64,000 nucleotides of DNA. Source: a virus. Lineage: Duplodnaviria; Caudoviricetes. Positions 4,819-50,400 of the stretch are shown piece after piece. A program made the translations under genes and the position numbers. The stretch lies in IMG/VR virus record IMGVR_UViG_2831987924_000001; one strand, given 5' to 3'. The notes below the pieces were generated by a model. That model did not search any database. It was given only the letters and a program-made list of their open reading frames with translations, and was not told the origin of the DNA. Position 1 is the first letter of the stretch. Every line of letters starts with the position of its first letter.

Positions 4819-5820
4819 TCACCACGGCAAGTCCAAATCGTCTATATCTTCACTATCTCCCCAACTTGAATCAACTTGACCTTCTGAATTCAATTTCTTA
4901 ATCGCTTCTTCAATCGCTTCTTCTGTGTAAGTTTCTGTATCAATTGAATCTGGACTCGCACCTGTAATTACCAGTTCACGAACATAGCTTTTATTAATAC
5001 GCTTAAATGTATCTTCTTCACCCCATACATTTGAAGCTTCTTCTACTTCATCTGTATCAATTTTATTTACAATTTTACCCCATACATCAATAGCTGTATA
5101 TGGCTTTAATTTTCCTCTAAAATTATTAGCAAGTGCTTTATTGTAGATAATAAATTCTGCATCTTCAATAGAATTATAGTTAACAATTTTTGCTTCCACA
5201 ATAAAGCGTGGCTCTTCACTTTCATTGTCTTTTTCAATATTCATAAAAACAATTTTTTGTTTAAAATCGCTTGTTTCTTTGAAATCAGGAGATTCAAAGT
5301 CAACATTGCTAGAGTTATAAATTTGTCTTACATTAAATCGTTTATTACGTGAAACTTCTCCATTATCACGTTTAAATGATGAAAATTCAATTTCACCTTG
5401 TACAAATACAGGCATACCATCTTCTAATTGTTCATAAATTTTTTCGGCTGCATCAAACTCTGTATATGTATGTTTTACATTCTTACCGTTCTCATCTTTT
5501 TCTAATCCAACAGCAACACCGATCAATTCATATCCTTCACCTTGATCATCAAATCTTTTTGCCCACGCAACCTTCTTTGTTTCAGTTTTACCATTTCCTA
5601 CCCGTTTGCTAAAATAAACATCGTCACGTTCCATACCTTGTACTGTTACAAATACTGTTGATTCTGGAGCTGTTTCTACACCAAAATTAAGCACGTACAT
5701 TTTTTTGCCACTTCTTGTTTCAATTTCTTTAAATGTATTATCTCGTTGCATACCAGTTACATATCCCCGTAATTTGAAAATCCCTTTTGTTTGCGGTAAA
5801 CCATGTTTTGTATTTGCCAT
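4819..5820 (-). CDS. Single-stranded DNA-binding protein, YorF-like
   Basis: OB-fold-like beta pattern and acidic tail ending DIDDLDLPW. Confidence 0.7.
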   Translation of the reverse strand: MANTKHGLPQTKGIFKLRGYVTGMQRDNTFKEIETRSGKKMYVLNFGVETAPESTVFVTVQGMERDDVYFSKRVGNGKTETKKVAWAKRFDDQGEGYELIGVAVGLEKDENGKNVKHTYTEFDAAEKIYEQLEDGMPVFVQGEIEFSSFKRDNGEVSRNKRFNVRQIYNSSNVDFESPDFKETSDFKQKIVFMNIEKDNESEEPRFIVEAKIVNYNSIEDAEFIIYNKALANNFRGKLKPYTAIDVWGKIVNKIDTDEVEEASNVWGEEDTFKRINKSYVRELVITGASPDSIDTETYTEEAIEEAIKKLNSEGQVDSSWGDSEDIDDLDLPW

Positions 5821-6056
5821 ATTAATATTCCTCCTTTTGTTCCTTTTTAATTTAATATTTTTATATTTTTATTGATAATCTTTTATATTTGGAGGATCAC
5901 GCCCAATTCGTTCTATGGTACTCACCGCCTTTCAATAAAACAATTATTTTATCGTATGTTTAACACAAGATGTTGTATGTCAATTTGTTTATCACTACTA
6001 TATATTGTATTATTTTTATATTTTGTTTGATTCGTGTTGTTTAACCCTGCAATCTT

Positions 6057-6116
6057 ATCTTATAACATTTCATTTTCCTTTGTCAATATTATTTTTATAT
6101 TTTATTTAATTATTTT
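6057..6116 (-). promoter_or_regulatory. sigmaA promoter with upstream phage operator-like motif
   Basis: TTGACA (6086-6081), TAAGAT, and upstream TTAAATAAAATATAA. Confidence 0.7.
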
Positions 6117-6121
6117 ATATA

Positions 6122-7513
6122 TCAGCTTATATATTTTTGATTACGTTGCTCTCTTTCTTGCTTTTCTAACTGTTCTTTAATAATCTTTTCAATATTCGGC
6201 GTTGCAATATTTCTCGCAGCATTAATATCAGCATTCTCTTTATAACCACAAACTTGACAAATGAATTGACCTTGTTCTGGTCTCCAATCTTTTTTCTCAT
6301 AACTCTTATGTATATGACCGCATTTTGAACATCTAGCTGACGTATAAGCAGGATCAATATACACTACATCAATTCCATGTTCTCTTGCCTTATATTCTAT
6401 TTTTTGTTGTAAATCATAAAAACTCCAATTCTTTAAAAACGAATATTCTTCAGGAATAATGCCTTCTAATTTTTCCATTTGAATTGTTCCACATTTGTTT
6501 TTTAAAGCTATGTTAATAATTTCCCTGCTCCAAACATGATTCTTTAAGTTTTTAAAATTATTAATTTTCTCCCCGATATTTAAAACAGGTTTTATACGTG
6601 TCTTAATACCATGCCCTACTCGACCATCTCCAGCCCAAACAGACCATTTTTGCAACTGTTTCTTTCTTACTTCAATTTTTGTTCTAAAATCTTCAATCTC
6701 TTTTCGATCTCCAATAAACCATTTTTTATATGGCATATCATTTATAGCAACAGCAGCAGGAATGTTATATCCAATATCTATTCCCATGATTCGATTTTTA
6801 TCTAATTTTTCATCTTTCTTTTGTTCAAAAGAATAAACTAAATCAAAAAATATCTTGTTACCTTTCATAAAGATACGTGAACCACCTATTTTATATTCTT
6901 TATTTAAAACTCGTTCTAAAATAACTTTATTATATTTATCATTTGCTTTAATATAAAAACGAATATTCATATCATTAATGTTTCGTTTATGTACTTTTTC
7001 TTCTTTTTTATTCTTTGTTTTTACAGTAATACCGTTATATAGTTCTTCAGCATATTCTTTTCGCAATAAACGAACAGTGACAATATAATTATTATCGTTA
7101 CTTTTATTGATCTTTACTTGTGACCCTCTAAATAAAATTGGGTGTCCTTTTTTAAAACTTAAAAAACTTGCTTTACCTAACATAAAATCTTCTTTATTTT
7201 TCTTCATTTTTACTTTTACTTCTCTAGTTATTGTTTCAACAGAGTCACCATTCATTTTCTGAAATTCCTTCTTTAAGTTTCTGTTTATATAAGCGTCATC
7301 TGCAACACCTTCTACGTCTTTTACATTAAACTTTATCCCAAATTTACTATAATAAATCTTTTTAAAGTTGTCTGCTTCCCATAAATATTGAGCACAGCGA
7401 TTTAAACAATTCCATGTTTCGTAACTAATTTGATTTAAAATATATCGAAAAACTTCCCAATCATCATCTAAAGGTCTAACAATTTGATACCTCATTGTTT
7501 TAGTACATGTCAT
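6122..7513 (-). CDS. cas12f: Type V-F CRISPR effector Cas12f1 (V-U3/C2c10-like)
   Basis: Collinear with AsCas12f1 as recalled (RYQIVRPLD, IMGID, GHGIKTRIKP, CGTIQME, FLKNWSFYDLQQKIEYKA, CxxC/CxxC, NADINAARNIA); RuvC D/E/D intact; adjacent array and tracrRNA. Confidence 0.93.
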   Translation of the reverse strand: MTCTKTMRYQIVRPLDDDWEVFRYILNQISYETWNCLNRCAQYLWEADNFKKIYYSKFGIKFNVKDVEGVADDAYINRNLKKEFQKMNGDSVETITREVKVKMKKNKEDFMLGKASFLSFKKGHPILFRGSQVKINKSNDNNYIVTVRLLRKEYAEELYNGITVKTKNKKEEKVHKRNINDMNIRFYIKANDKYNKVILERVLNKEYKIGGSRIFMKGNKIFFDLVYSFEQKKDEKLDKNRIMGIDIGYNIPAAVAINDMPYKKWFIGDRKEIEDFRTKIEVRKKQLQKWSVWAGDGRVGHGIKTRIKPVLNIGEKINNFKNLKNHVWSREIINIALKNKCGTIQMEKLEGIIPEEYSFLKNWSFYDLQQKIEYKAREHGIDVVYIDPAYTSARCSKCGHIHKSYEKKDWRPEQGQFICQVCGYKENADINAARNIATPNIEKIIKEQLEKQEREQRNQKYIS

Positions 7514-7704
7514 TTTTTCACCTTCTTTTTTGCTTTTATTTTCTTTAATATTTTTTCAGCTTTTTCATACGTTTCGTATATCTTCATTAAAGAAACTAAC
7601 TTCTTCTTTTTAATATTTTCGCATTTTACCCATACAGATGTTCCGCGTTTTGATGGATATAATATTTCAATTCTATATATAGAATCATTTCTAATTATAT
7701 ACAT
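7510..7704 (-). CDS. Small Lys-rich protein overlapping the cas12f start (ATGA)
   Basis: GAAGGTGA RBS, 64 aa, stop/start overlap. Confidence 0.6.
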   Translation of the reverse strand: MYIIRNDSIYRIEILYPSKRGTSVWVKCENIKKKKLVSLMKIYETYEKAEKILKKIKAKKKVKK

Positions 7705-7753
7705 TTTATATCACCTTCACATTATATATTTCCATTCAATATAAATTCATCTA

Positions 7754-7981
7754 CTTCACACCATACTTGATTAATTTAAAACTATTGATACAAGCACAGC
7801 GGCAGGCAAAGCGCTGTTCTTCACACCATACTTGATTAATTTAAAACGGAGAAATTAAGGTTTTTTCATAGAATATATAATTATGCTTCACACCATACTT
7901 GATTAATTTAAAACTCGATTAGTATTGATTTCGTATCAAAATCAACATGTTCCTTCACACCATACTTGATTAATTTAAAAC
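7754..7981 (-). CRISPR. CRISPR array: 4 identical 29-bp repeats GTTTTAAATTAATCAAGTATGGTGTGAAG, spacers 36/38/38 bp
   Basis: Repeats at 7754-7782, 7819-7847, 7886-7914, 7953-7981; orientation from the GTTT...GTGAAG ends and leader position. Confidence 0.97.
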
Positions 7982-8125
7982 CCTATAATTATCAAAACTT
8001 TTCTAATTAAACACATTAATCATTTTTACAAAAACACTACATTTTTTATTCATTTTGCAGTGAACCTATTTCGCTAATCCATTGATAAATCAATATTTTT
8101 AAAATTAACTACCACTTCACTGCAA
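7982..8125 (-). promoter_or_regulatory. CRISPR leader
   Basis: AT-rich, with inverted repeat TTGCAGTGAA (8055-8064) / TTCACTGCAA (8116-8125). Confidence 0.7.
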
Positions 8126-8130
8126 TTTAT

Positions 8131-8305
8131 TTTTGTATGGTGTCTAGCCGGAGTTTGTGGCTAGAGTTTCAGCCAGCTTATTGCTGGACTACCTTATCGA
8201 GTGTTGTTCCCTTTAATTATGGTATTCGAACGATTAATATGTATTTACTCTCGTTAGGGAACACTTCTCGATCTAAGGACGCTGAATAGCCCTATGGTGT
8301 GAATT
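8131..8305 (-). ncRNA. Cas12f tracrRNA
   Basis: Minus strand has TTCAGC...CGAGAAGTG...ACTCGATAAGGTAG...GCTGAAACTC, a stem, then anti-repeat ACACCATAC, matching the AsCas12f1 tracr layout; ends approximate. Confidence 0.85.
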
Positions 8306-8373
8306 TATATTTTAAATATTATTATATTTTATTTAATAATGGTTCACATAAACATCACCTCTTTTCTATTCTT

Positions 8374-8493
8374 ATCTTATCGCTGTTGTTTTTAGTTGTC
8401 AATATTATTTTTATAATTTATTTAATTATTTTTATTAAATTATTTAGCAGCAATTTCTAATCTTATCTTACTATTGTTCAAATCTAATGTCAA
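8374..8493 (-). promoter_or_regulatory. Tandem sigmaA promoters facing tracr-array-cas12f
   Basis: TTGACA-17-TAAGAT at 8402-8374 and 8493-8465. Confidence 0.75.
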
Positions 8494-8512
8494 CACATTT
8501 TTTATAATTTTA

Positions 8513-9796
8513 TTAATAATAACTTGGTTCATCTTTATCGTGTCTAATGCAAATAAACACTGGGAAAGATACACTTAATCCTCCGTCTTGATTGCGTGAT
8601 TCACGGAAATATTGAATTTCTGCAATCTTACCTAAATATTTTTCTTTATTGTTCCATATTTCTTTGCGATCTTCATCTGTAAATCCCGAACCGCAGCGAA
8701 GCTCATAGCCTTTATAATCTAAAAGTAATGCACCTAACATACCTTCATATTTTCCTGTTCCCTCTTCAAATCCGATAATTTTACAATCCATAGTATTCAT
8801 GGACTTGATTTTTAATAACACATCAGTGCGTTTGCATTGATATTTACCATCGCTAACATTCAACATCAAGCCTTCCTTACCTTTTCGATTCATTTCTTCG
8901 AGTAATTTAGGAATTACATCTAAATCTTTACCAACATATAAATTCGGCACAACCTTAATATACGGTGATTTTAATTTATCAACAATAAACTCTAATTCTT
9001 CTTTACGCTTTCGATATGTTGCTTTTGATTTCCCCGCTTTAAATTCTTCAATTGGAATCATATCAAATAAATGCAATACCAAACCTCGTTTTTCTCTATC
9101 TTTACGAGCGATCTTTAATGTTTCTTGCAGTACTTCTCGATCTTTATAATCATCAGCATTAGCGATCAATAATTCTCCATCATACACATTATCAGGTAAG
9201 AATACCGCATCTCTCATAATTTCAACTAATCCTGTAATCGGTTGTCCTTGACGTGAAAAGAATGTCACATTCCCATTTTCAACAATCATAATGGTACGCA
9301 TTCCATCAAGCTTTTCAGTAATGACAAATTCTTTGCCTTTTACTTTATGTTCTTCATCTTCAAATTTCTTTGCCAACATTACATTAAACTCTGGAATAAA
9401 CTTCTCACCAAAAGCCTTATTGATTGACTTTGCCGTTGCCCCAATTTTTAGCGTCTTTGTGATAATCTCTTCATATAATCCCTTTAATTCTTCATCATCT
9501 TGTGCATTTAAAAATTCAGCAACCATTTTCACATCATGATCTGTTCCTGTATTATGTACTTTTAAATACTTGATTACTTCAAATAAATCATTAAATTTAT
9601 TTTCTTTACCAGTTGCTTTGTTAATAAATTTCTTTAATTTCTTTTCACCAATACCAAAAACAATATATGGATTTAGTGCTGCGTCTAATACCTTTCTTAA
9701 TGTTTGATTATTTTTATGTTGCTTTAAAATCACTTCCTTTTCATTCCGACTATTTGTTGCTTTGATTTGATTAATAATCTCTAATACCTCTTTCAT
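8513..9796 (-). CDS. ATP-dependent DNA ligase
   Basis: EKLDGMR, YDGEL, EGLML, LKIK, GSGF motifs. Confidence 0.93.
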   Translation of the reverse strand: MKEVLEIINQIKATNSRNEKEVILKQHKNNQTLRKVLDAALNPYIVFGIGEKKLKKFINKATGKENKFNDLFEVIKYLKVHNTGTDHDVKMVAEFLNAQDDEELKGLYEEIITKTLKIGATAKSINKAFGEKFIPEFNVMLAKKFEDEEHKVKGKEFVITEKLDGMRTIMIVENGNVTFFSRQGQPITGLVEIMRDAVFLPDNVYDGELLIANADDYKDREVLQETLKIARKDREKRGLVLHLFDMIPIEEFKAGKSKATYRKRKEELEFIVDKLKSPYIKVVPNLYVGKDLDVIPKLLEEMNRKGKEGLMLNVSDGKYQCKRTDVLLKIKSMNTMDCKIIGFEEGTGKYEGMLGALLLDYKGYELRCGSGFTDEDRKEIWNNKEKYLGKIAEIQYFRESRNQDGGLSVSFPVFICIRHDKDEPSYY

Positions 9797-9853
9797 ACAT
9801 AGTCCTCCTTTGTACTAAACATTCAAAAATAACATCTGAATGAAAGATTGGTT

Positions 9854-12649
9854 TTATTGTAATTCTCTTCTTAACTCTTCAATCAGCTTCTTTTTAGCCC
9901 ATTTAGGAATCATTAAAGAACTCGTGCCACTTCCAACATCCATAGATAACAATACTTTCCCTTTGTTCTTTTCTAATGTTTTTAATACTTTTTTAGCTTC
10001 TGTCCAATCAATTTTACGAAAGAGTGTTTTACATTTTCCCCATTGACAAATATAGATTTGAAAACTGTCTTTAACTTTATATAACTCACCATCCTTCGAT
10101 TCATAATAGTAATCAACATGTATAAATGCATCCTTTTTGAAGAAATTTATAATCCTTTCTATACGGTCAATAATCTTTATCAGTATTCTAATAAATATTT
10201 TCTTCATATATCCACACCCTTTTATATTTGAATCAAATCATCCATTTATATTCACCTCGTTTTATTTGAATTCTAATATCCTAATAACTTTTCCCGTTAA
10301 ATAGAAATTTTCTGCACCACTATACAACACTTCATTAAGCAACCCTTCTTTTTCTTCCTCTGTCATTAATTCCTCATCAAAATCACCAGTTAATTCAATT
10401 TCAGCAATTACTTTCATCTTATCAACCTCCTATAAAATGTTAGTTCTATTTATAATACAATAAGATTCCTATCATCTCCTGTAATACTTCTTTCTCTTTC
10501 TTTAATCTCATTCTTTTCTTTTTATACTTTTTAGCTTTATTATATTTTTTATTAATTAAGTCAACAATAACTCGATCAATATTCATGTATTCTGACATAG
10601 CAACAAAGAACCGATAAAACACCTCACTTTCCATCCATATGTATTCTTTACCATTACGGCTTATTTTTTTAACAGGAAATTCATATTGCATTATCATTCA
10701 CCATCCGATAAAGAGCTAATTTTATCACCATTTTTTCATCAAGAATTTAACCTTCTTTAAATATTCTATAATTGTTTCCGTTAAATCAGATTTTTCCGAT
10801 TGTAAAATATCTAAAGCGTTGTCAACATGTTTAATTGCCTCTTTATATTGGTATGGAACATCATCAATATCCAAACTTCTTTTACAATCATCCATAATCT
10901 CCATTAATTTATCAAAGTTGATATTTTGATTCATATAACTATCTCTTAAAGCATACTTGTACCAACTTAACTCAAATCCCGTTGGTTTATGTATGAAATT
11001 AGGTAATTCACAAATTCTATCATCATCTCCCCAATAATAAGGCATTAAAATGAATGTATCGTTCTCAAAATATGTCGCATCTCCAAACTCTGACTTTATC
11101 GTTTTAAACTCGCCTTTATAAGTTTGCTTGTCATTCACAGGTAATCCATAACCATCAAAACCCATATCATATAATTTATAAACAAATGCATCTTGCCAAC
11201 TACGATCAACTCTATATTCTCCTCTTGAATTCCCGAATATCGCATTACCTAATTCCATTAATATCACCTCTGTTTAAAATTTTGTTTTTAAATAGATTTC
11301 AAAAGATCAATTAATTCTCTGCACTCATTGATAATCGATTCTCTTCCCTCTTTTACATACTGTCTAATCACATCTGCTTGACAATTAATTGTATTTTTGC
11401 CTTTGAACATATCGCTAAAATCATCAAACTGCTTTGCGTATTCAACTAAATGGGGATTTTCATCTAAATATTTTAACCACAGTAATTTATACCAGTATGT
11501 AAGATATTTTGTGTCAAATACCTTTCCTTTCAACTCAATATGAGTAGGCTGTCTACCTTTTGCATCTCTCCATGTTTTTGGTACTTCATTACCAAATCTT
11601 TTGCAAAGTTGATAATGATTTTCTATTGAATCATATTTGCCCCACACATTAACTTTTGCATAAAATGCAGAGAATCGTTTATCACCTTTTGAAGAACATT
11701 CTAAAATTTTAATGATGTATCACCTCTCCACAAAAAATCAATTTTATTAATACTCTGTTGAACAAACAATATACGGTTCATCTTTATTTTCCCATTTCAA
11801 TACATCTGCAATAGTCACTAACGCAAACCAGATGCCGTCCATTATTTTCATTTTTCTTGTTACATCTTGATCTTCTTGTGGAATCTCATCTACTTCATAC
11901 CACATCATTACATTTTCCGGATTAACTTCATATGGATAATACATAGGATCTAAAACCTCTTCCTCATTAAGTCCATAATAGTCCATATACCATTGTTTCG
12001 CTTCTTCAAGACTTTTGGCAGCCACATAATCAAATTCGTTTAATCTAAACACTTTCATTTCTTGCATTTGAAAAACTCCTTTCTAAATGAAGTATCGTTT
12101 TTATATAATCAGATAACAAATTGTCTCGTTTACTCAACAATCCATAAATACAAATCATCTAATGGAATTGTATAAGTGTAAGTATCAATGAGGTTTATAC
12201 ATTTTGCTTTATCTCCATCAATTTCTTTAATTAAATAAGGAACAACTATTCCGTTTTGTTTTCTAGAACGTACAATATCATTTACTTTCAGCATTATCTA
12301 TTCTCCCTTCCACTAATAATATTTTTATACTTTAATCTACAATCGAACGAACAAAATCCACCTTGCACATAGAATACACGCAATTTACTTCCACAATATT
12401 TACACGTTTTATGTTTTGACATATCATTCATCCTTTTTATAATCTAAAGAATTTTTGAGGAAAGTTTTTTGCTTTTGTGTGAATAAATTCATCAATAACA
12501 ATTAATGCCACAATAATATTTGCAACAGGTGTTAAAACAAACATTACATCTAACATTTCAGGCATTGTTGTCATATTATTTTTGGCACGCCATCTTACGC
12601 CTATCCATCCAATTATAAATGGTATCACGTACAATAAAACAAATTCCAA
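9854..12649 (-). CDS. Cluster of small hypothetical phage genes (9854-10207, 10446-10697, 10725-11267, 11288-11713, 11747-12067, 12437-12649 and shorter ones)
   Basis: Co-oriented ORFs with RBSs; no recognisable family. Confidence 0.65.
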
Positions 12650-47467: not shown

Positions 47468-50400
47468 TTAAGAGTGGACAGTGTACGGGATAGCGTAGTT
47501 ATTTGCAATCATTTTAATACCTCTTGCTTCTTCTTGCGTTTTTGGGTAAACGGTTAATGTTTGACGATCTCCTTTTATGCTTAAATATCCATATCCTTCC
47601 CTAATCTCTTTTAGACCTTCTCTCACATTGTTGCGCCAAATTTTAAACTCCTTGTCATTGTTACGTTTAATTTTTTTAAGTACGATCATCATTTAAACCA
47701 TCTCCTTTATTATTATATTTTCCCTACAAGTACATTATAAACCTGCTAATTACTAAAGTCAACGACTAAATTATAAAAGTAACATCGTTTTCAACGCACA
47801 TAAACGGCTTATTTTCGCATTTTGCAGCGTTTAAATGGTATAGCATTAGGGTACTATCTAAAACGCAAAATTGGGCGATTTTAAGCGTATGGGAGCGTGT
47901 GAAGTGGATAGGTGAAGGGAAACAAAATGATTGGCTGAATGTGAAAAAATAATAAAAGCAACCTTCTACCATATTGGCAAAAGGTTGCTCGTTATGGTGG
48001 GAATATGTACATTGTATCAGCTCCAGTCATACGATTAGGAAGTATTCTTTCAAGCGATGTTTAGCAAGTAACCGATCTATAACTGGCTCTACTTCTTCCG
48101 CATAGGCAAGCTCCTTAATTTCATCATCGGTTAGGTTTGGGTAGACTTCATTTATTAAAAATTCGTATGCTTCTTTTAGTTCCTCGCGCTCCTTTTTAAT
48201 TGCGTAATATGATGAAAAGTTATAGATGATCGCCATTTTTATTACCTCACTTTCCATATTATATTTTTCAATATTATTATATTGTTTTCCATTTCAAAAA
48301 TCAACCATTTTTTATATTTTGATACAAAAAATTAACCGATCTTTTTATGATCGGTCGAGAATTCCTTGCTTAATATTGTTAATCCAGTCCTCAACATCTA
48401 AATATAAATCATCGAATGATTTTTCAAACGGATACCATTCGGCGAATAAATCAGCGTCAATGTTTTCGCTTTCGACTTCCTCCATTAATTGTAACCATGC
48501 TTTTTTAAAGTTTTCTAATGCTTGTAATGTATGGTTCAATTTTATTCACTCCTTTTTTATATAAAATCGTGTTTTTATCGTACCTATGAGGGATTAAAAC
48601 TCGGGATTCACTGACGCAATCGGTCACTCCAAAACAGTAAACGTTCTTTCCACAAATCTTTATCGCAAACTCGCAAAGTATTGTTTTTGTCATAGTAGGC
48701 GACAATGTCGCCCATGTCGAGGGCAACATCCCAAATATTGTCATTGTTATTCCAATTGATTTCCCATCCTCCTTCCCAGTCCGAGAAATCATCATTAAGA
48801 GATGAAGCGTTAAGAAAGCAATATAAAGTTCGTTCATCAACCGGAAAAACTCCTTTTTCCGTGATAACCGCATCATAAGCTCCCGTATGGACATAAATTG
48901 CTTGATACATGTTATCATCTCCTTTTTTTAAATTGTAATAAAATCAATGTCTAAAACACTTTTTAGACACTCATTTTATTACAATTCGCTTGCAGGGAAT
49001 TCAATCCCTGCAAGCTATGGAATTATTGCATAACTATGCTTGTCACATACTTATAATAAACATTGTTATATTCATCTGTTTTTTCTTCAAACAGATGAGC
49101 AAACTTTTTCCCGTGTGCTTTCGCTTCTTCTCTTGCTTCGTCAGTGTCTTCGACAATTTGATAATAGAGCTCTGCTCCTTCTTCAATTCGATCAACGGCG
49201 AATTGTGAATTATAAGTGTAGATTGCGAACATTTTAAACACTCCTTTTTTTAATTTATTTTTTTTGGGATCACTCACCTTATCGTCGGCACAAGCTCCCT
49301 TATGCCGACTGTAAGAGAAGCGATCATTTTTAAAAGTGCACGTCTACCAGCAACGGTCAGCGATCAGTATAATCAATGATCACATACTCATCCGGTCGAT
49401 ATTCAACTGTGATGGGACGGATGCGGACGTGCAAGCTTGTCGGTGTGTATTCATCCGTATAGACGATGCCATCGTATTCTTCACCGTCCCAAGCGTCATG
49501 AGACAACCCGACAAGCTCCCCTGTCCGCTGGGAGCGGATAAGCCGGACATCGCGGAACGGTGAGCGGATTTCAAACCATTCTGCCAATTCGTTCGGGAAA
49601 CCCAATTCTTCCCATAGTTCGACTACCGCGTCGAAATCATCTTCTTCTGCTGGAAAATTCGCCGGATTGTCGTTCAATCCACACCAGACGAAATCAGCTG
49701 TCCGGTTCTCAAAGTCGATAGTCACGTATACAACGTCGTCGCCGCGGACTTGATCAAGCCGGTCGGCTTCGGCTTCAAAGTATTTGCGAGCATCAACAGA
49801 AAATTGGACTTTCATAACTTTCTACCTCCATTCATCGTTCCCAAAAATGCTTCCATTTTTAAATTTCCCCTTTCGATTTTTAATTTTTTTAACCTTTCTG
49901 ATTATAGTATATCACCATTTTATTTAGCTGTCAACAATATTTTTTATTATATTTTAGTCGAATTGATCTCATGAAATACTGATTTTATTTAGAGTTATGA
50001 AAATCAATAAATTCATTTAACTTGTATATTGACCATTTATAACAATCTGTTAATTTTTGATATTTGTCATGCATACTACACATGTTGTTAATATCTTCAT
50101 TTTCTAATTTTAATAAATCTGTTTCAAGTTCTTTTGCATCCTTATACCAGTCCAAATAAATAATAGAGCATCTAATATAATAATCACCTTCATAATGTTT
50201 AAATAAATGTAATTCCGGTAAATTTCTTTTGATCAACTTAACGGTTAACAATGTATCAGTGATTCTATAAAATTCATTTGCTGAAATCGTAAATAATTCA
50301 TTAAAGTTTGTGATTTCTTTAAATTTAGGCTTAAATGTTGGATTATCAAAAATAGTCATCCCGTTTTTCGTGTAGTTAAATGAAAATATTGCACTTAGCA

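What the first reader, a model, noticed from the sequence alone, without database searches (positions are those of the whole stretch)
7783..7952. Two of three spacers translate into recombinase-like motifs
Seen: spacer 7783-7818 reads IDTSTAAGKAL on the plus strand, resembling the conserved IDTxTxxG segment of serine resolvases/invertases. Spacer 7915-7952 reads EHVDFDTKSILI on the minus strand, resembling the WxDIDFxxxxIxI segment of tyrosine integrases. I saw no protospacer in this window. Inference: the array targets recombinase genes of plasmids, transposons or rival prophages. The resolvase match is the stronger of the two.
Basis: partly seen in the sequence, partly recalled or inferred. 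Interest (0 to 1): 0.78.

Follow-up and report, generated by a model that had tools for sequence, protein, structure and literature searches.

The report
Phage CRISPR guides against rival recombinases
A large prophage in a Geobacillus-type bacterium carries its own miniature CRISPR-Cas12f system, and one (probably two) of its three guides were copied from the integration enzymes of competing mobile elements, so the phage probably uses the system against rivals.

Summary
Window 7754-7981 holds four identical 29-nt repeats and three spacers. S1 (7783-7818) reads IDTSTAAGKAL on the plus strand. S3 (7915-7952) reads EHVDFDTKSILI on the minus strand.

The array belongs to a compact type V-F1 (former V-U3) locus on the minus strand: two promoters, tracrRNA, leader, array, 64-aa ORF, and a 463-aa Cas12f closest to AsCas12f. 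There are no adaptation genes. The locus sits in a ~143-kb, 30%-GC prophage related to Geobacillus virus E3, which lacks it.

- **S3:** it has a 38/38 protospacer in the tyrosine integrase gene of a temperate tailed prophage, in the predicted frame. A 2-mismatch copy lies in another genome of the host's family.
- **S1:** its peptide occurs only in Resolvase-family genes in the three collections scanned. The best DNA match is 30/36, so its true protospacer is unknown.
- **S2:** it has no match anywhere.
The expected T-rich PAM is not supported; the 5' flank is GCGCCCT.
- **Relatives:** arrays of related phages show no clear recombinase bias.

Earlier notes of this scan report integrase-derived spacers in other phages' Cas12f-like arrays. 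This is a new member of a known kind.

The parts
8374..8493 (-). Two tandem sigma-70-like promoters (TTGACA-17 nt-TAAGAT) at 8493->8465 and 8402->8374, upstream of the tracrRNA
   Evidence: 10 of 12 matches each. Both elements are conserved in L009. They are part of a 33-nt direct repeat pair seen (D2).
8125..8305 (-). Putative tracrRNA. A 5' anti-repeat (8304->8293) is complementary to the 3' end of the repeat, and a 3' anti-repeat (about 8149->8125) is complementary to the middle of the repeat. The ends are approximate.
   Evidence: Sequence. Two-sequence consensus fold with L009: 39 pairs, 4 with compensatory changes. No Rfam family matches. Expression was not shown.
7982..8124 (-). Leader between tracrRNA and first repeat
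   Evidence: Nearly identical to the same region of L009, although the Cas12f proteins are only 50% identical.
7754..7981 (-). CRISPR array of 4 identical 29-nt repeats (7953-7981, 7886-7914, 7819-7847, 7754-7782). On the minus strand the repeat starts GTTTTAAATT and ends GGTGTGAAG.
   Evidence: The orientation comes from the L009 degenerate terminal repeat and the leader and from the promoters.
7915..7952 (-). Spacer S3 (leader-proximal, 38 nt, 29% GC). The guide equals the sense strand of a tyrosine integrase gene (peptide EHVDFDTKSILI).
   Evidence: 38/38 match at L003 12366-12403. 2-mismatch match at G045:C1:1805691-1805728. Both genes are PF00589.
7848..7885 (-). Spacer S2 (38 nt, 21% GC), target unknown
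   Evidence: No match.
7783..7818 (-). Spacer S1 (leader-distal, 36 nt, 50% GC). The guide is antisense to a serine-recombinase coding sequence (peptide IDTSTAAGKAL on the plus strand).
   Evidence: The best nucleotide match is 30/36 in L006. No hit within 3 mismatches in 48 family genomes other than the spacer itself.
7510..7704 (-). 64-aa basic ORF between array and cas12f, overlapping the cas12f start by 4 nt. No family was found and it is absent from L009.
   Evidence: atlas best score 0.77, which is no evidence. L009 has only about 60 nt at this position.
6122..7513 (-). cas12f, 463 aa. RuvC residues D246, E347 and D429 and zinc-finger cysteines C395, C398, C419 and C422 are present.
   Evidence: NF040570 1.8e-44 and PF07282 5.8e-24. 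Best solved relatives are AsCas12f entries 8j3r, 7wju and 8dzj, E 1e-81 to 4e-78. The catalytic and zinc columns are invariant in 18 homologues.

Best explanation
The three spacers belong to a self-contained type V-F1 (V-U3-like) CRISPR-Cas12f system carried by an E3/SPbeta-like temperate phage integrated in a Geobacillus-type chromosome. A minus-strand transcript gives a tracrRNA and a pre-crRNA. Each crRNA (the repeat 3' part plus a spacer) pairs with the tracrRNA through two anti-repeat segments and loads into a Cas12f with an intact RuvC site. The complex then cuts double-stranded DNA that matches the guide next to a 5' PAM. S3 was copied from the tyrosine integrase gene of a rival temperate tailed phage that occurs in the same bacterial family. 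S1 was copied from a small serine recombinase (resolvase/invertase) gene of an element not yet in the databases searched. The phage, as prophage or during infection, therefore most likely destroys such rival integrating elements, or kills cells that carry them.

Shown: the anatomy, homology, orientation, the S3 protospacer, and the S1 peptide identity.

Inferred: expression, cleavage, the PAM, and the competitive role. Whether recombinase genes are preferred targets or were hit by luck is left open.
For: - **Locus:** Cas12f homology to AsCas12f at E 1e-81; an intact, invariant catalytic triad and zinc finger; four perfect repeats.
- **tracrRNA and orientation:** the tracrRNA is complementary to the repeat and shows 4 compensatory pairs against L009. 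There are two minus-strand promoters. L009 has a degenerate terminal repeat at the cas12f-proximal end and a conserved leader.
- **No adaptation genes:** the genome's only Cas1 hit is at C5:1687609-1688478, about 195 kb beyond the right end of the 1.35-1.49-Mb AT-rich island.
- **Phage context:** the flanking genes are primase, DnaB, an SSB-like protein and ATP ligase. They are 91% identical to Geobacillus virus E3, which lacks the 2.3-kb insert.
- **S3:** 38/38 match in a PF00589 / phrog_1 integrase. The record also has terminase, portal, major head and tape-measure genes. A 2-mismatch copy with identical flanks lies in a genome of the same family.
- **S1:** all 3 collection hits to its wobble pattern are Resolvase-family ORFs at the homologous position.
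- **No self-target:** there is no protospacer in the lysogen. Its own serine recombinases differ at the motif.
- **Profile test:** S1 and S3 were the top scorers among 159 spacers.
Against: - No exact or near-exact S1 protospacer was found. There were 0 hits in viral contigs. The best is 30/36, in a Rhizobiales-type resolvase. Only the spacer itself was found among 48 family genomes at up to 3 mismatches.
- S2 has no match at all.
- Only one protospacer is known, so the PAM is undefined. Its 5' flank, GCGCCCT, is unlike the NTTR PAM of AsCas12f.
- No RNA or cleavage data exist.
- Related phage arrays show no detectable excess of recombinase-like spacers. Their few leads point elsewhere: an endolysin, a host carboxyltransferase gene and a self-match.
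- The profile scores are partly circular, because the target proteins were in the profiles.
Confidence: 0.72

Rival explanations
1. The spacers do come from rival elements, but the recombinase theme is a sampling accident. Spacers are drawn more or less at random from invading DNA, and two of three happened to fall in recombinase genes.
For: In my profile test of 159 unique spacers (98 from Cas12f-adjacent arrays), nothing beyond S1 and S3 stood out. The next best was the L031 spacer, with an empirical p of 0.0037, where 0.6 such hits are expected by chance. Leads from relatives point to an endolysin and a host metabolic gene. With n = 3 the sample is tiny.
Against: In the S3 target record, the integrase plus the invertase make up about 1.6 kb of 36.5 kb, or 4%. 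Under uniform sampling, two or more of three spacers would fall in recombinases with a probability of about 0.005 (my calculation). The L031 spacer peptide DLGKRISDTTI fits the N-terminal motif of the same integrase subfamily. Earlier notes of this scan report integrase-derived spacers in other phage Cas12f-like arrays (unchecked). The profile test can only detect spacers taken from conserved motifs.
Confidence: 0.35
2. The guides act mainly on resident integrated elements in the host chromosome. Cutting a prophage integrase gene breaks the chromosome, which helps host takeover during lytic growth or removes cells lysogenic for a rival. On this reading the system does not defend a lysogen against incoming DNA.
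For: The near-identical S3 target in G045 is chromosomal and sits in a decayed element next to a transposase-like ORF. The target record is classed as a provirus. The lysogen that carries the array lacks all three targets, as expected if carrying both is lethal.
Against: The same absence is expected for plain exclusion of incoming elements. Nothing shows when the locus is expressed. The G045 copy has a mismatch at guide position 6, in the PAM-proximal part.
Confidence: 0.2
3. The system binds or silences rather than destroys, for example by blocking expression of a rival's recombinase as VIPR or nuclease-dead Cas12f systems do, or it serves homing of the 2.3-kb cassette.
For: A phage-encoded RNA-guided system that silences a satellite's excision recombinase has been described (10.64898/2026.10.15.759431; abstract and section 6 read). 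The locus is an insertion relative to phage E3.
Against: All three RuvC residues and the zinc finger are intact and invariant, and the closest solved relatives are cutting enzymes. S1 is antisense and S3 is sense to their genes, so there is no consistent strand choice as expected for transcription blocking. The guides do not match the insertion site.
Confidence: 0.06
4. The array is an inactive relic carried along with a domesticated or decaying TnpB-like gene, so the spacers have no present function.
For: The array is short and has no adaptation genes. The only other close homologue in the host family (G046, 45% identity) has an in-frame stop.
Against: The repeats are perfect and the 463-aa frame is open with its catalytic residues. 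Promoters, leader and tracrRNA are conserved with compensatory changes, although the proteins are only 50% identical. The leader-proximal spacer still has a perfect database match.
Confidence: 0.05

Closest known systems
Type V-F1 CRISPR-Cas12f (former V-U3), e.g. AsCas12f1 of Acidibacillus sulfuroxidans
   Same: The protein is miniature (463 aa against 422 aa) and aligns over its full length at E 1e-81. The RuvC triad and zinc finger are shared. There is a tracrRNA with two repeat:anti-repeat segments, as described for AsCas12f1 in 10.1101/2023.07.03.547593 (passages read). There are no adaptation genes, and the group is found in Bacilli and Clostridia, as Karvelis et al. 2020 describe for V-U3 (PMC7229846, passages read).
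   Different: Here tracrRNA and array lie upstream of cas12f, with a 64-aa ORF in between. The system is carried by a phage. The four AsCas12f1 residues reported to read the NTTR PAM (H72, Y76, S92, K96) align with D, N, E and R here (my reading of the alignment). The one known 5' flank is GCGCCCT. Identity to AsCas12f is only moderate.
Phage- and virus-borne CRISPR systems and mini-arrays used in competition between mobile elements (reviewed in PMC11656645, passages read)
   Same: The CRISPR locus lies in a viral genome, a spacer matches another virus, and adaptation genes are missing.
   Different: The mini-arrays in that review use repeats identical to the host's and borrow host Cas proteins. 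This array has its own effector and a repeat found nowhere else in the host genome. The passages I read mention V-F as enriched in plasmids but do not mention recombinase targets.
VIPR system of phage SUSP1 (bioRxiv 10.64898/2026.10.15.759431; abstract and section 6 read)
   Same: It is a phage-encoded RNA-guided system whose guide matches the recombinase gene of a rival integrated element. This is a functional analogy.
   Different: The protein and guide RNA are unrelated (a non-contiguous code). It silences transcription rather than cutting. Its target there is a satellite, whereas the S3 target here is a complete-looking tailed prophage with its own terminase, portal, head and tail genes.
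Geobacillus virus E3 (KP144388, 141 kb)
   Same: The flanking genes (ligase and gp104 homologue) are 91% identical, the replication module has the same gene order, and size and low GC are similar.
   Different: E3 has only about 380 nt between gp104 and the ligase gene. The 2.3-kb cas12f-array-tracrRNA cassette is absent.
IS200/IS605 TnpB
   Same: The two are homologous (NF040570). Many family genomes carry TnpB copies that match the C-terminal half at 30-36% identity.
   Different: Here there is a CRISPR array with distinct spacers and a separate tracrRNA. No TnpA family turned up among the 10 flanking ORFs scanned, and I did not look for transposon ends. NF038281 IS200_TnpB scores 50 bits against a cut-off of 425.

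Membership tests
Type V-F1 (V-U3) CRISPR-Cas12f | Small effector homologous to characterised Cas12f1 proteins | tested here: met
   AsCas12f entries at E 1e-81 to 4e-78 over residues 4-449. PF07282 and NF040570.
Type V-F1 (V-U3) CRISPR-Cas12f | Intact tri-split RuvC catalytic residues and zinc finger | tested here: met
   D246, E347, D429, C395, C398, C419 and C422 are invariant in 18 aligned homologues.
Type V-F1 (V-U3) CRISPR-Cas12f | Adjacent CRISPR array | tested here: met
   Four identical repeats lie 241 nt upstream of the gene. My detector found repeat arrays in the fetched flanks of 34 of the 43 loci L009-L051, most within about 1 kb of the homologue. Some two-copy cases may be chance.
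Type V-F1 (V-U3) CRISPR-Cas12f | tracrRNA with anti-repeat | tested here: inconclusive
   Complementarity to the repeat at two sites and 4 compensatory pairs in a two-sequence comparison. There is no RNA evidence and only one comparable relative.
Type V-F1 (V-U3) CRISPR-Cas12f | No cas1/cas2/cas4 in the locus (V-U3 trait) | tested here: met
   The single Cas1 hit in the genome lies outside the prophage. None of the 10 neighbouring ORFs scanned matched a Cas adaptation family. Cas2 and Cas4 families were not searched separately.
Type V-F1 (V-U3) CRISPR-Cas12f | 5' PAM-dependent double-stranded DNA cleavage | not testable with these tools
   Only one protospacer is known (5' flank GCGCCCT). A PAM library assay is needed.
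Phage-encoded CRISPR for competition between mobile elements | Locus lies inside a viral genome | tested here: met
   A 143-kb island of 30% GC in a 51%-GC chromosome, homologous to phage E3.
Phage-encoded CRISPR for competition between mobile elements | Spacers match other mobile elements and not the carrier or its host | tested here: met
   S3 matches a provirus that has structural genes. There is no match in the own genome. This is met for 1 of 3 spacers at the DNA level.
Phage-encoded CRISPR for competition between mobile elements | Measured advantage in co-infection or exclusion | not testable with these tools
   This needs an experiment.
Viral mini-array that borrows host Cas proteins | Repeat identical or nearly identical to a host array repeat | tested here: not met
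   The 29-nt repeat occurs only 4 times in the genome, all in this array. Host arrays have a different 30-nt repeat. The lone repeat at 48571-48600 does meet this criterion, with 1 mismatch.
VIPR | Vipr protein and guide RNA with alternating GGY/NN units | tested here: not met
   The effector is a Cas12f homologue and the guides are ordinary contiguous spacers. Only the choice of target is similar.

The most novel reading that the evidence does not exclude
Phage-borne miniature type V arrays may be stocked preferentially with guides against the integration and excision recombinases of rival integrating elements (prophages, satellites, transposons). This would be a cutting-enzyme counterpart of the VIPR strategy. 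A hit in the recombinase gene would destroy incoming rivals and would also be lethal to cells that already carry them, so the phage would keep its lysogens free of competitors. This array would be a clear natural example, with 2 of 3 guides of that kind. The L031 spacer and the integrase-derived spacers noted earlier in this scan would be further cases.
Probability: 0.25. Interest if true: 0.75.

Novelty: new member of a known kind. Interest (0 to 1): 0.55.

Why it matters
- **Natural target:** this is a documented natural target for a V-F1/V-U3 Cas12f system, a group known mostly as genome-editing tools. It shows such a system on a temperate phage of thermophilic Bacilli, aimed at another temperate phage's integrase.
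- **Thermophile enzyme:** a Cas12f from a probable thermophile with a possibly non-T-rich PAM could be of practical interest.
- **Wider rule:** together with the 2026 VIPR work, it hints that recombinase genes may be recurrent targets in conflicts between mobile elements. That idea can be tested directly by a census of spacers.

Tried and rejected
- **T-rich PAM:** this holds only if the array were read on the plus strand (flank GGATTT). I rejected it because the promoters, the conserved leader, the degenerate terminal repeat in L009 and the repeat polarity in about 30 related loci all give the minus strand.
- **S3 target as a phage satellite (by analogy with VIPR):** rejected. The record has terminase, portal, head and tape-measure genes.
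- **S1 from the invertase of that same prophage:** rejected. The best alignment has 16 of 36 mismatches, and the protein motif there is VDTTTAIGKLM.
- **L006 as the S1 source:** rejected. It matches 30/36 and its homologues are from Rhizobiales.
- **S2:** the exact search and two wobble patterns for its two open frames found nothing in viral contigs.
- **Whole-array BLAST:** no match against phages or plasmids at E up to 1.
- **L009 array:** against phages there was only a 31/35 match of spacer 1 to Acinetobacter phage endolysin genes, E 0.01, which is probably not a real target. Against plasmids there was nothing.
- **L031 spacer wobble pattern:** it found only L031's own contig.
- **Cas12 hacker (10.1101/2025.01.20.633832):** a different family, 500-700 aa with a GTN PAM.
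- **Sequencing runs:** no run held more than 31% of the sampled words, and all listed runs were kept as assembled contigs, so there is no evidence on strand or expression.
- **64-aa ORF:** the protein atlas gave a best score of 0.77, which is no evidence.
- **Alignment of L011 and L012 upstream regions to the tracrRNA:** too divergent to use.
- **Literature searches:** 'V-U3, spacers, prophage' and 'V-F, phage-encoded CRISPR, integrase, spacers' gave no paper on recombinase-targeting Cas12f arrays. This covers only the held library.
- **Supplements:** I did not open any. The supplementary PAM logos of Karvelis et al. 2020, for example for the Parageobacillus enzyme, may bear on the PAM question.

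Full report
**Observation.** Window 7754-7981 holds four identical copies of a 29-nt repeat with spacers of 36, 38 and 38 nt. The repeat occurs nowhere else in the 3.73-Mb genome. S1 (7783-7818) translates on the plus strand to IDTSTAAGKAL. S3 (7915-7952) translates on the minus strand to EHVDFDTKSILI.

**What the locus is.**
- The ORF at 6122-7513(-) encodes a 463-aa protein. It matches the TnpB/Cas12f families (NF040570 1.8e-44, PF07282 5.8e-24).
- Among solved structures it is closest to AsCas12f (8j3r, 7wju, 8dzj; E 1e-81 to 4e-78 over nearly the full length).
- In an alignment of 18 homologues, the RuvC residues D246, E347 and D429 and four zinc-finger cysteines are invariant.
- On the minus strand, upstream of the array, lie two strong promoter-like sites (TTGACA, 17 nt, TAAGAT).
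- Next comes a structured region of about 180 nt (8305 to 8125). Its 5' end is complementary to the last 11 nt but one of the repeat, and its 3' end is complementary to the middle of the repeat.
- A 143-nt leader follows.

**Orientation.** A viral contig, L009, encodes a Cas12f that is 50% identical. It has the same arrangement, with almost identical promoters, scaffold and leader.
- A two-sequence consensus fold gives 39 pairs, 4 of them with compensatory changes.
- In L009 the repeat nearest cas12f is degenerate. That places the leader on the tracrRNA side.
- The array is therefore read on the minus strand, in the same direction as cas12f.
- Two repeat:anti-repeat segments are also what is described for the AsCas12f1 guide RNA (10.1101/2023.07.03.547593, passages).
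- I found no RNA data.

**Context.**
- The window is G000:C5:1379872-1443871. It has 30% GC in a genome of 51% GC.
- It lies in an AT-rich island from about 1.349 to 1.492 Mb.
- The flanking genes are a phage replication module: primase, DnaB, an SSB-like protein, an AAA protein and an ATP-dependent ligase.
- Geobacillus virus E3 (141 kb) is 91% identical over the flanks but covers only 39% of window 5800-10200. It has about 380 nt between gp104 and the ligase gene. The 2.3-kb CRISPR cassette is therefore an insertion relative to E3, or a loss in E3.
- A Resolvase-domain hit inside a 902-aa open frame sits at the left edge of the island. This fits a large serine integrase.
- The genome's only Cas1 hit is at C5:1687609-1688478, outside the island.
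- Among 48 genomes of the host's family, only G000 has this gene. One other genome (G046) has a 45% identical copy with an in-frame stop. The remaining hits are TnpB-like C-terminal matches.

**Targets.**
- *S3.* A wobble-degenerate pattern for its peptide found one stretch in viral contigs. The DNA is 38/38 identical to the spacer.
  - It lies in frame in a 318-aa ORF that is a Phage_integrase (PF00589 2.4e-32; phrog_1 5.5e-52).
  - The record is a 36.5-kb provirus, 47% complete by CheckV, with 34-37% GC. It has terminase, portal, minor and major head, major tail and tape-measure genes. It is a temperate tailed phage, not a satellite.
  - Of 401 genomes sampled from the host's order, 2 had S3 within 3 mismatches. 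One is G000 itself. The other is G045, of the same family, with 2 mismatches, identical flanks and a 285-aa PF00589 ORF.
- *S1.* Its wobble pattern gave 0 stretches in viral contigs, 2 in genome contigs and 1 in metagenome contigs.
  - All three lie at the homologous position of small serine recombinases. L004 scores PF00239 at 2e-46 and L005 at 6.6e-17. The 120 listed homologues of the L006 ORF all carry PF00239.
  - Nucleotide identity is low in L004 and L005 (25 of 33 in L004, my count) and 30/36 in L006, whose relatives are from Rhizobiales. None of these is the source.
  - In the 48 family genomes only the spacer itself was found at up to 3 mismatches.
- *S2.* It gave nothing.
- The whole array had no match at E up to 1 in 50,697 phage records or 72,556 plasmid records.

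**Chance.**
- The S1 pattern has 22 fixed and 3 two-fold positions. I calculate about 0.009 chance hits in 596 Gb on both strands. Three hits were seen, all in the predicted family and position.
- In a profile test I built profiles from 105 tyrosine recombinases and 128 serine recombinases. I scored the six-frame peptides of 159 unique spacers against 100 shuffles each.
  - S3 was the top scorer for the tyrosine profile (empirical p 0.0008).
  - S1 was the top scorer for the serine profile (no shuffle reached its score).
  - This is partly circular, since the target proteins were in the profiles.
- If spacers were drawn evenly from a genome like the target, where recombinase genes are about 4%, two or more of three in recombinases would occur about 5 times in 1000 (my calculation).

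**PAM.**
- On the minus-strand reading, the S3 guide equals the sense strand of the integrase gene, and its 5' flank is GCGCCCT in both copies.
- The TTT flank appears only on the rejected orientation.
- The AsCas12f1 residues reported to read NTTR (H72, Y76, S92, K96) align with D, N, E and R here (my reading). A different PAM is therefore plausible.
- V-U3 enzymes are reported to use T-rich or C-rich PAMs (PMC7229846, passages).
- One protospacer cannot define a PAM.

**Generality.**
- Relatives of this Cas12f are common in IMG/VR. Of 190 pattern matches, 97 encode a relative and 79 loci were kept.
- My detector found periodic repeats in the fetched flanks of 34 of the 43 loci L009-L051, most of them within about 1 kb of the gene.
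- Among their spacers, only one further candidate looked recombinase-like. The L031 spacer peptide DLGKRISDTTI fits the motif D-x-G-K-R-[IV]-S-D-x-T-I of the same integrase subfamily. Its p of 0.0037 is not significant over 159 spacers, and its pattern found only its own contig.
- Other leads point elsewhere:
  - L009 spacer 1 matches an endolysin at 31/35.
  - A G046 spacer resembles a host carboxyltransferase gene.
  - An L038 spacer matches its own contig at 34/34.
- Earlier notes of this scan, on other genomes, report integrase-derived spacers in phage Cas12f-like arrays. I did not check them.

**Reading.**
- The locus is a phage-borne V-F1 system of the V-U3 kind, complete for interference and lacking adaptation genes.
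- Its newest spacer was taken from the integrase gene of a rival temperate phage of the same host family. Its oldest spacer was taken from a serine recombinase gene of an unknown element.
- The lysogen carries none of the targets. Its own serine recombinases differ at the S1 motif.
- The most likely function is destruction of rival integrating elements.
- The closest functional precedent for aiming at a rival's recombinase is VIPR of phage SUSP1, which silences rather than cuts.
- Whether recombinase genes are preferred targets remains open.

Noticed in passing
window 48571-48600 (-): A solitary CRISPR repeat (Rfam CRISPR-DR2, 42.6 bits). It differs by one base from the 30-nt repeat of the host's own arrays at C5:1.02-1.03 Mb and C4:0.998 Mb. 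It lies between two minus-strand phage ORFs and in their orientation. It looks like a phage-borne single repeat unit of the kind proposed to act as an RNA anti-CRISPR or as a hook for host Cas proteins.
   Followed up: partly
G000:C5 about 1,349,000-1,492,000 (the window lies inside): The whole 143-kb island has 27-36% GC inside a chromosome of 51% GC. It is the size of phage E3. A Resolvase-domain hit in a 902-aa frame lies at its left edge (C5:1350080-1350538), and a tyrosine recombinase lies about 3 kb beyond its right edge (C5:1495233-1496108). It is probably an integrated E3/SPbeta-like prophage. The attachment sites were not mapped.
   Followed up: partly
L038 6638-6671 and L038 339-372: In a 118-kb viral contig with a 36%-identical Cas12f, one spacer of the array matches the same contig 34/34 about 6 kb upstream, inside a 112-aa ORF. 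The 5' flank is AATAATTCC. This is a self-target or a regulatory guide.
   Followed up: partly
L093 (G046:C2:340140-344411) and L104, L105, L107, L110: The only other close Cas12f homologue in the host family has an in-frame TAA. Its 6-repeat array has a spacer that resembles a conserved host carboxyltransferase gene of about 520 aa. The match covers 25-30 nt at 87-92% in 6 of 48 family genomes, including G046 itself.
   Followed up: partly
L031 4567-4600: A spacer of another phage Cas12f array translates to DLGKRISDTTI. This fits the N-terminal motif of the integrase subfamily that S3 targets. It is suggestive but not significant on its own.
   Followed up: partly
L090 6789-7418 (record G434): The prophage targeted by S3 also encodes a 209-aa DNA invertase (phrog_125, 1.6e-68) next to its terminase gene. 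S1 does not match it at the DNA level.
   Followed up: yes
window 8370-8520 (-): The two promoters upstream of the tracrRNA are part of a tandem duplication of about 90 nt (33-nt repeat pair at 8397-8429 and 8488-8520). The duplication is conserved in L009. A ribosome-binding-like site followed by ATG-TGA lies just before the tracrRNA.
   Followed up: no
L009-L051 (IMG/VR contigs, many of 100-150 kb): Relatives of this Cas12f with short arrays of 2-7 repeats, 29-34 nt long with a period of about 66 nt, are widespread on large viral contigs. The arrays lie either upstream or downstream of the gene.
   Followed up: partly
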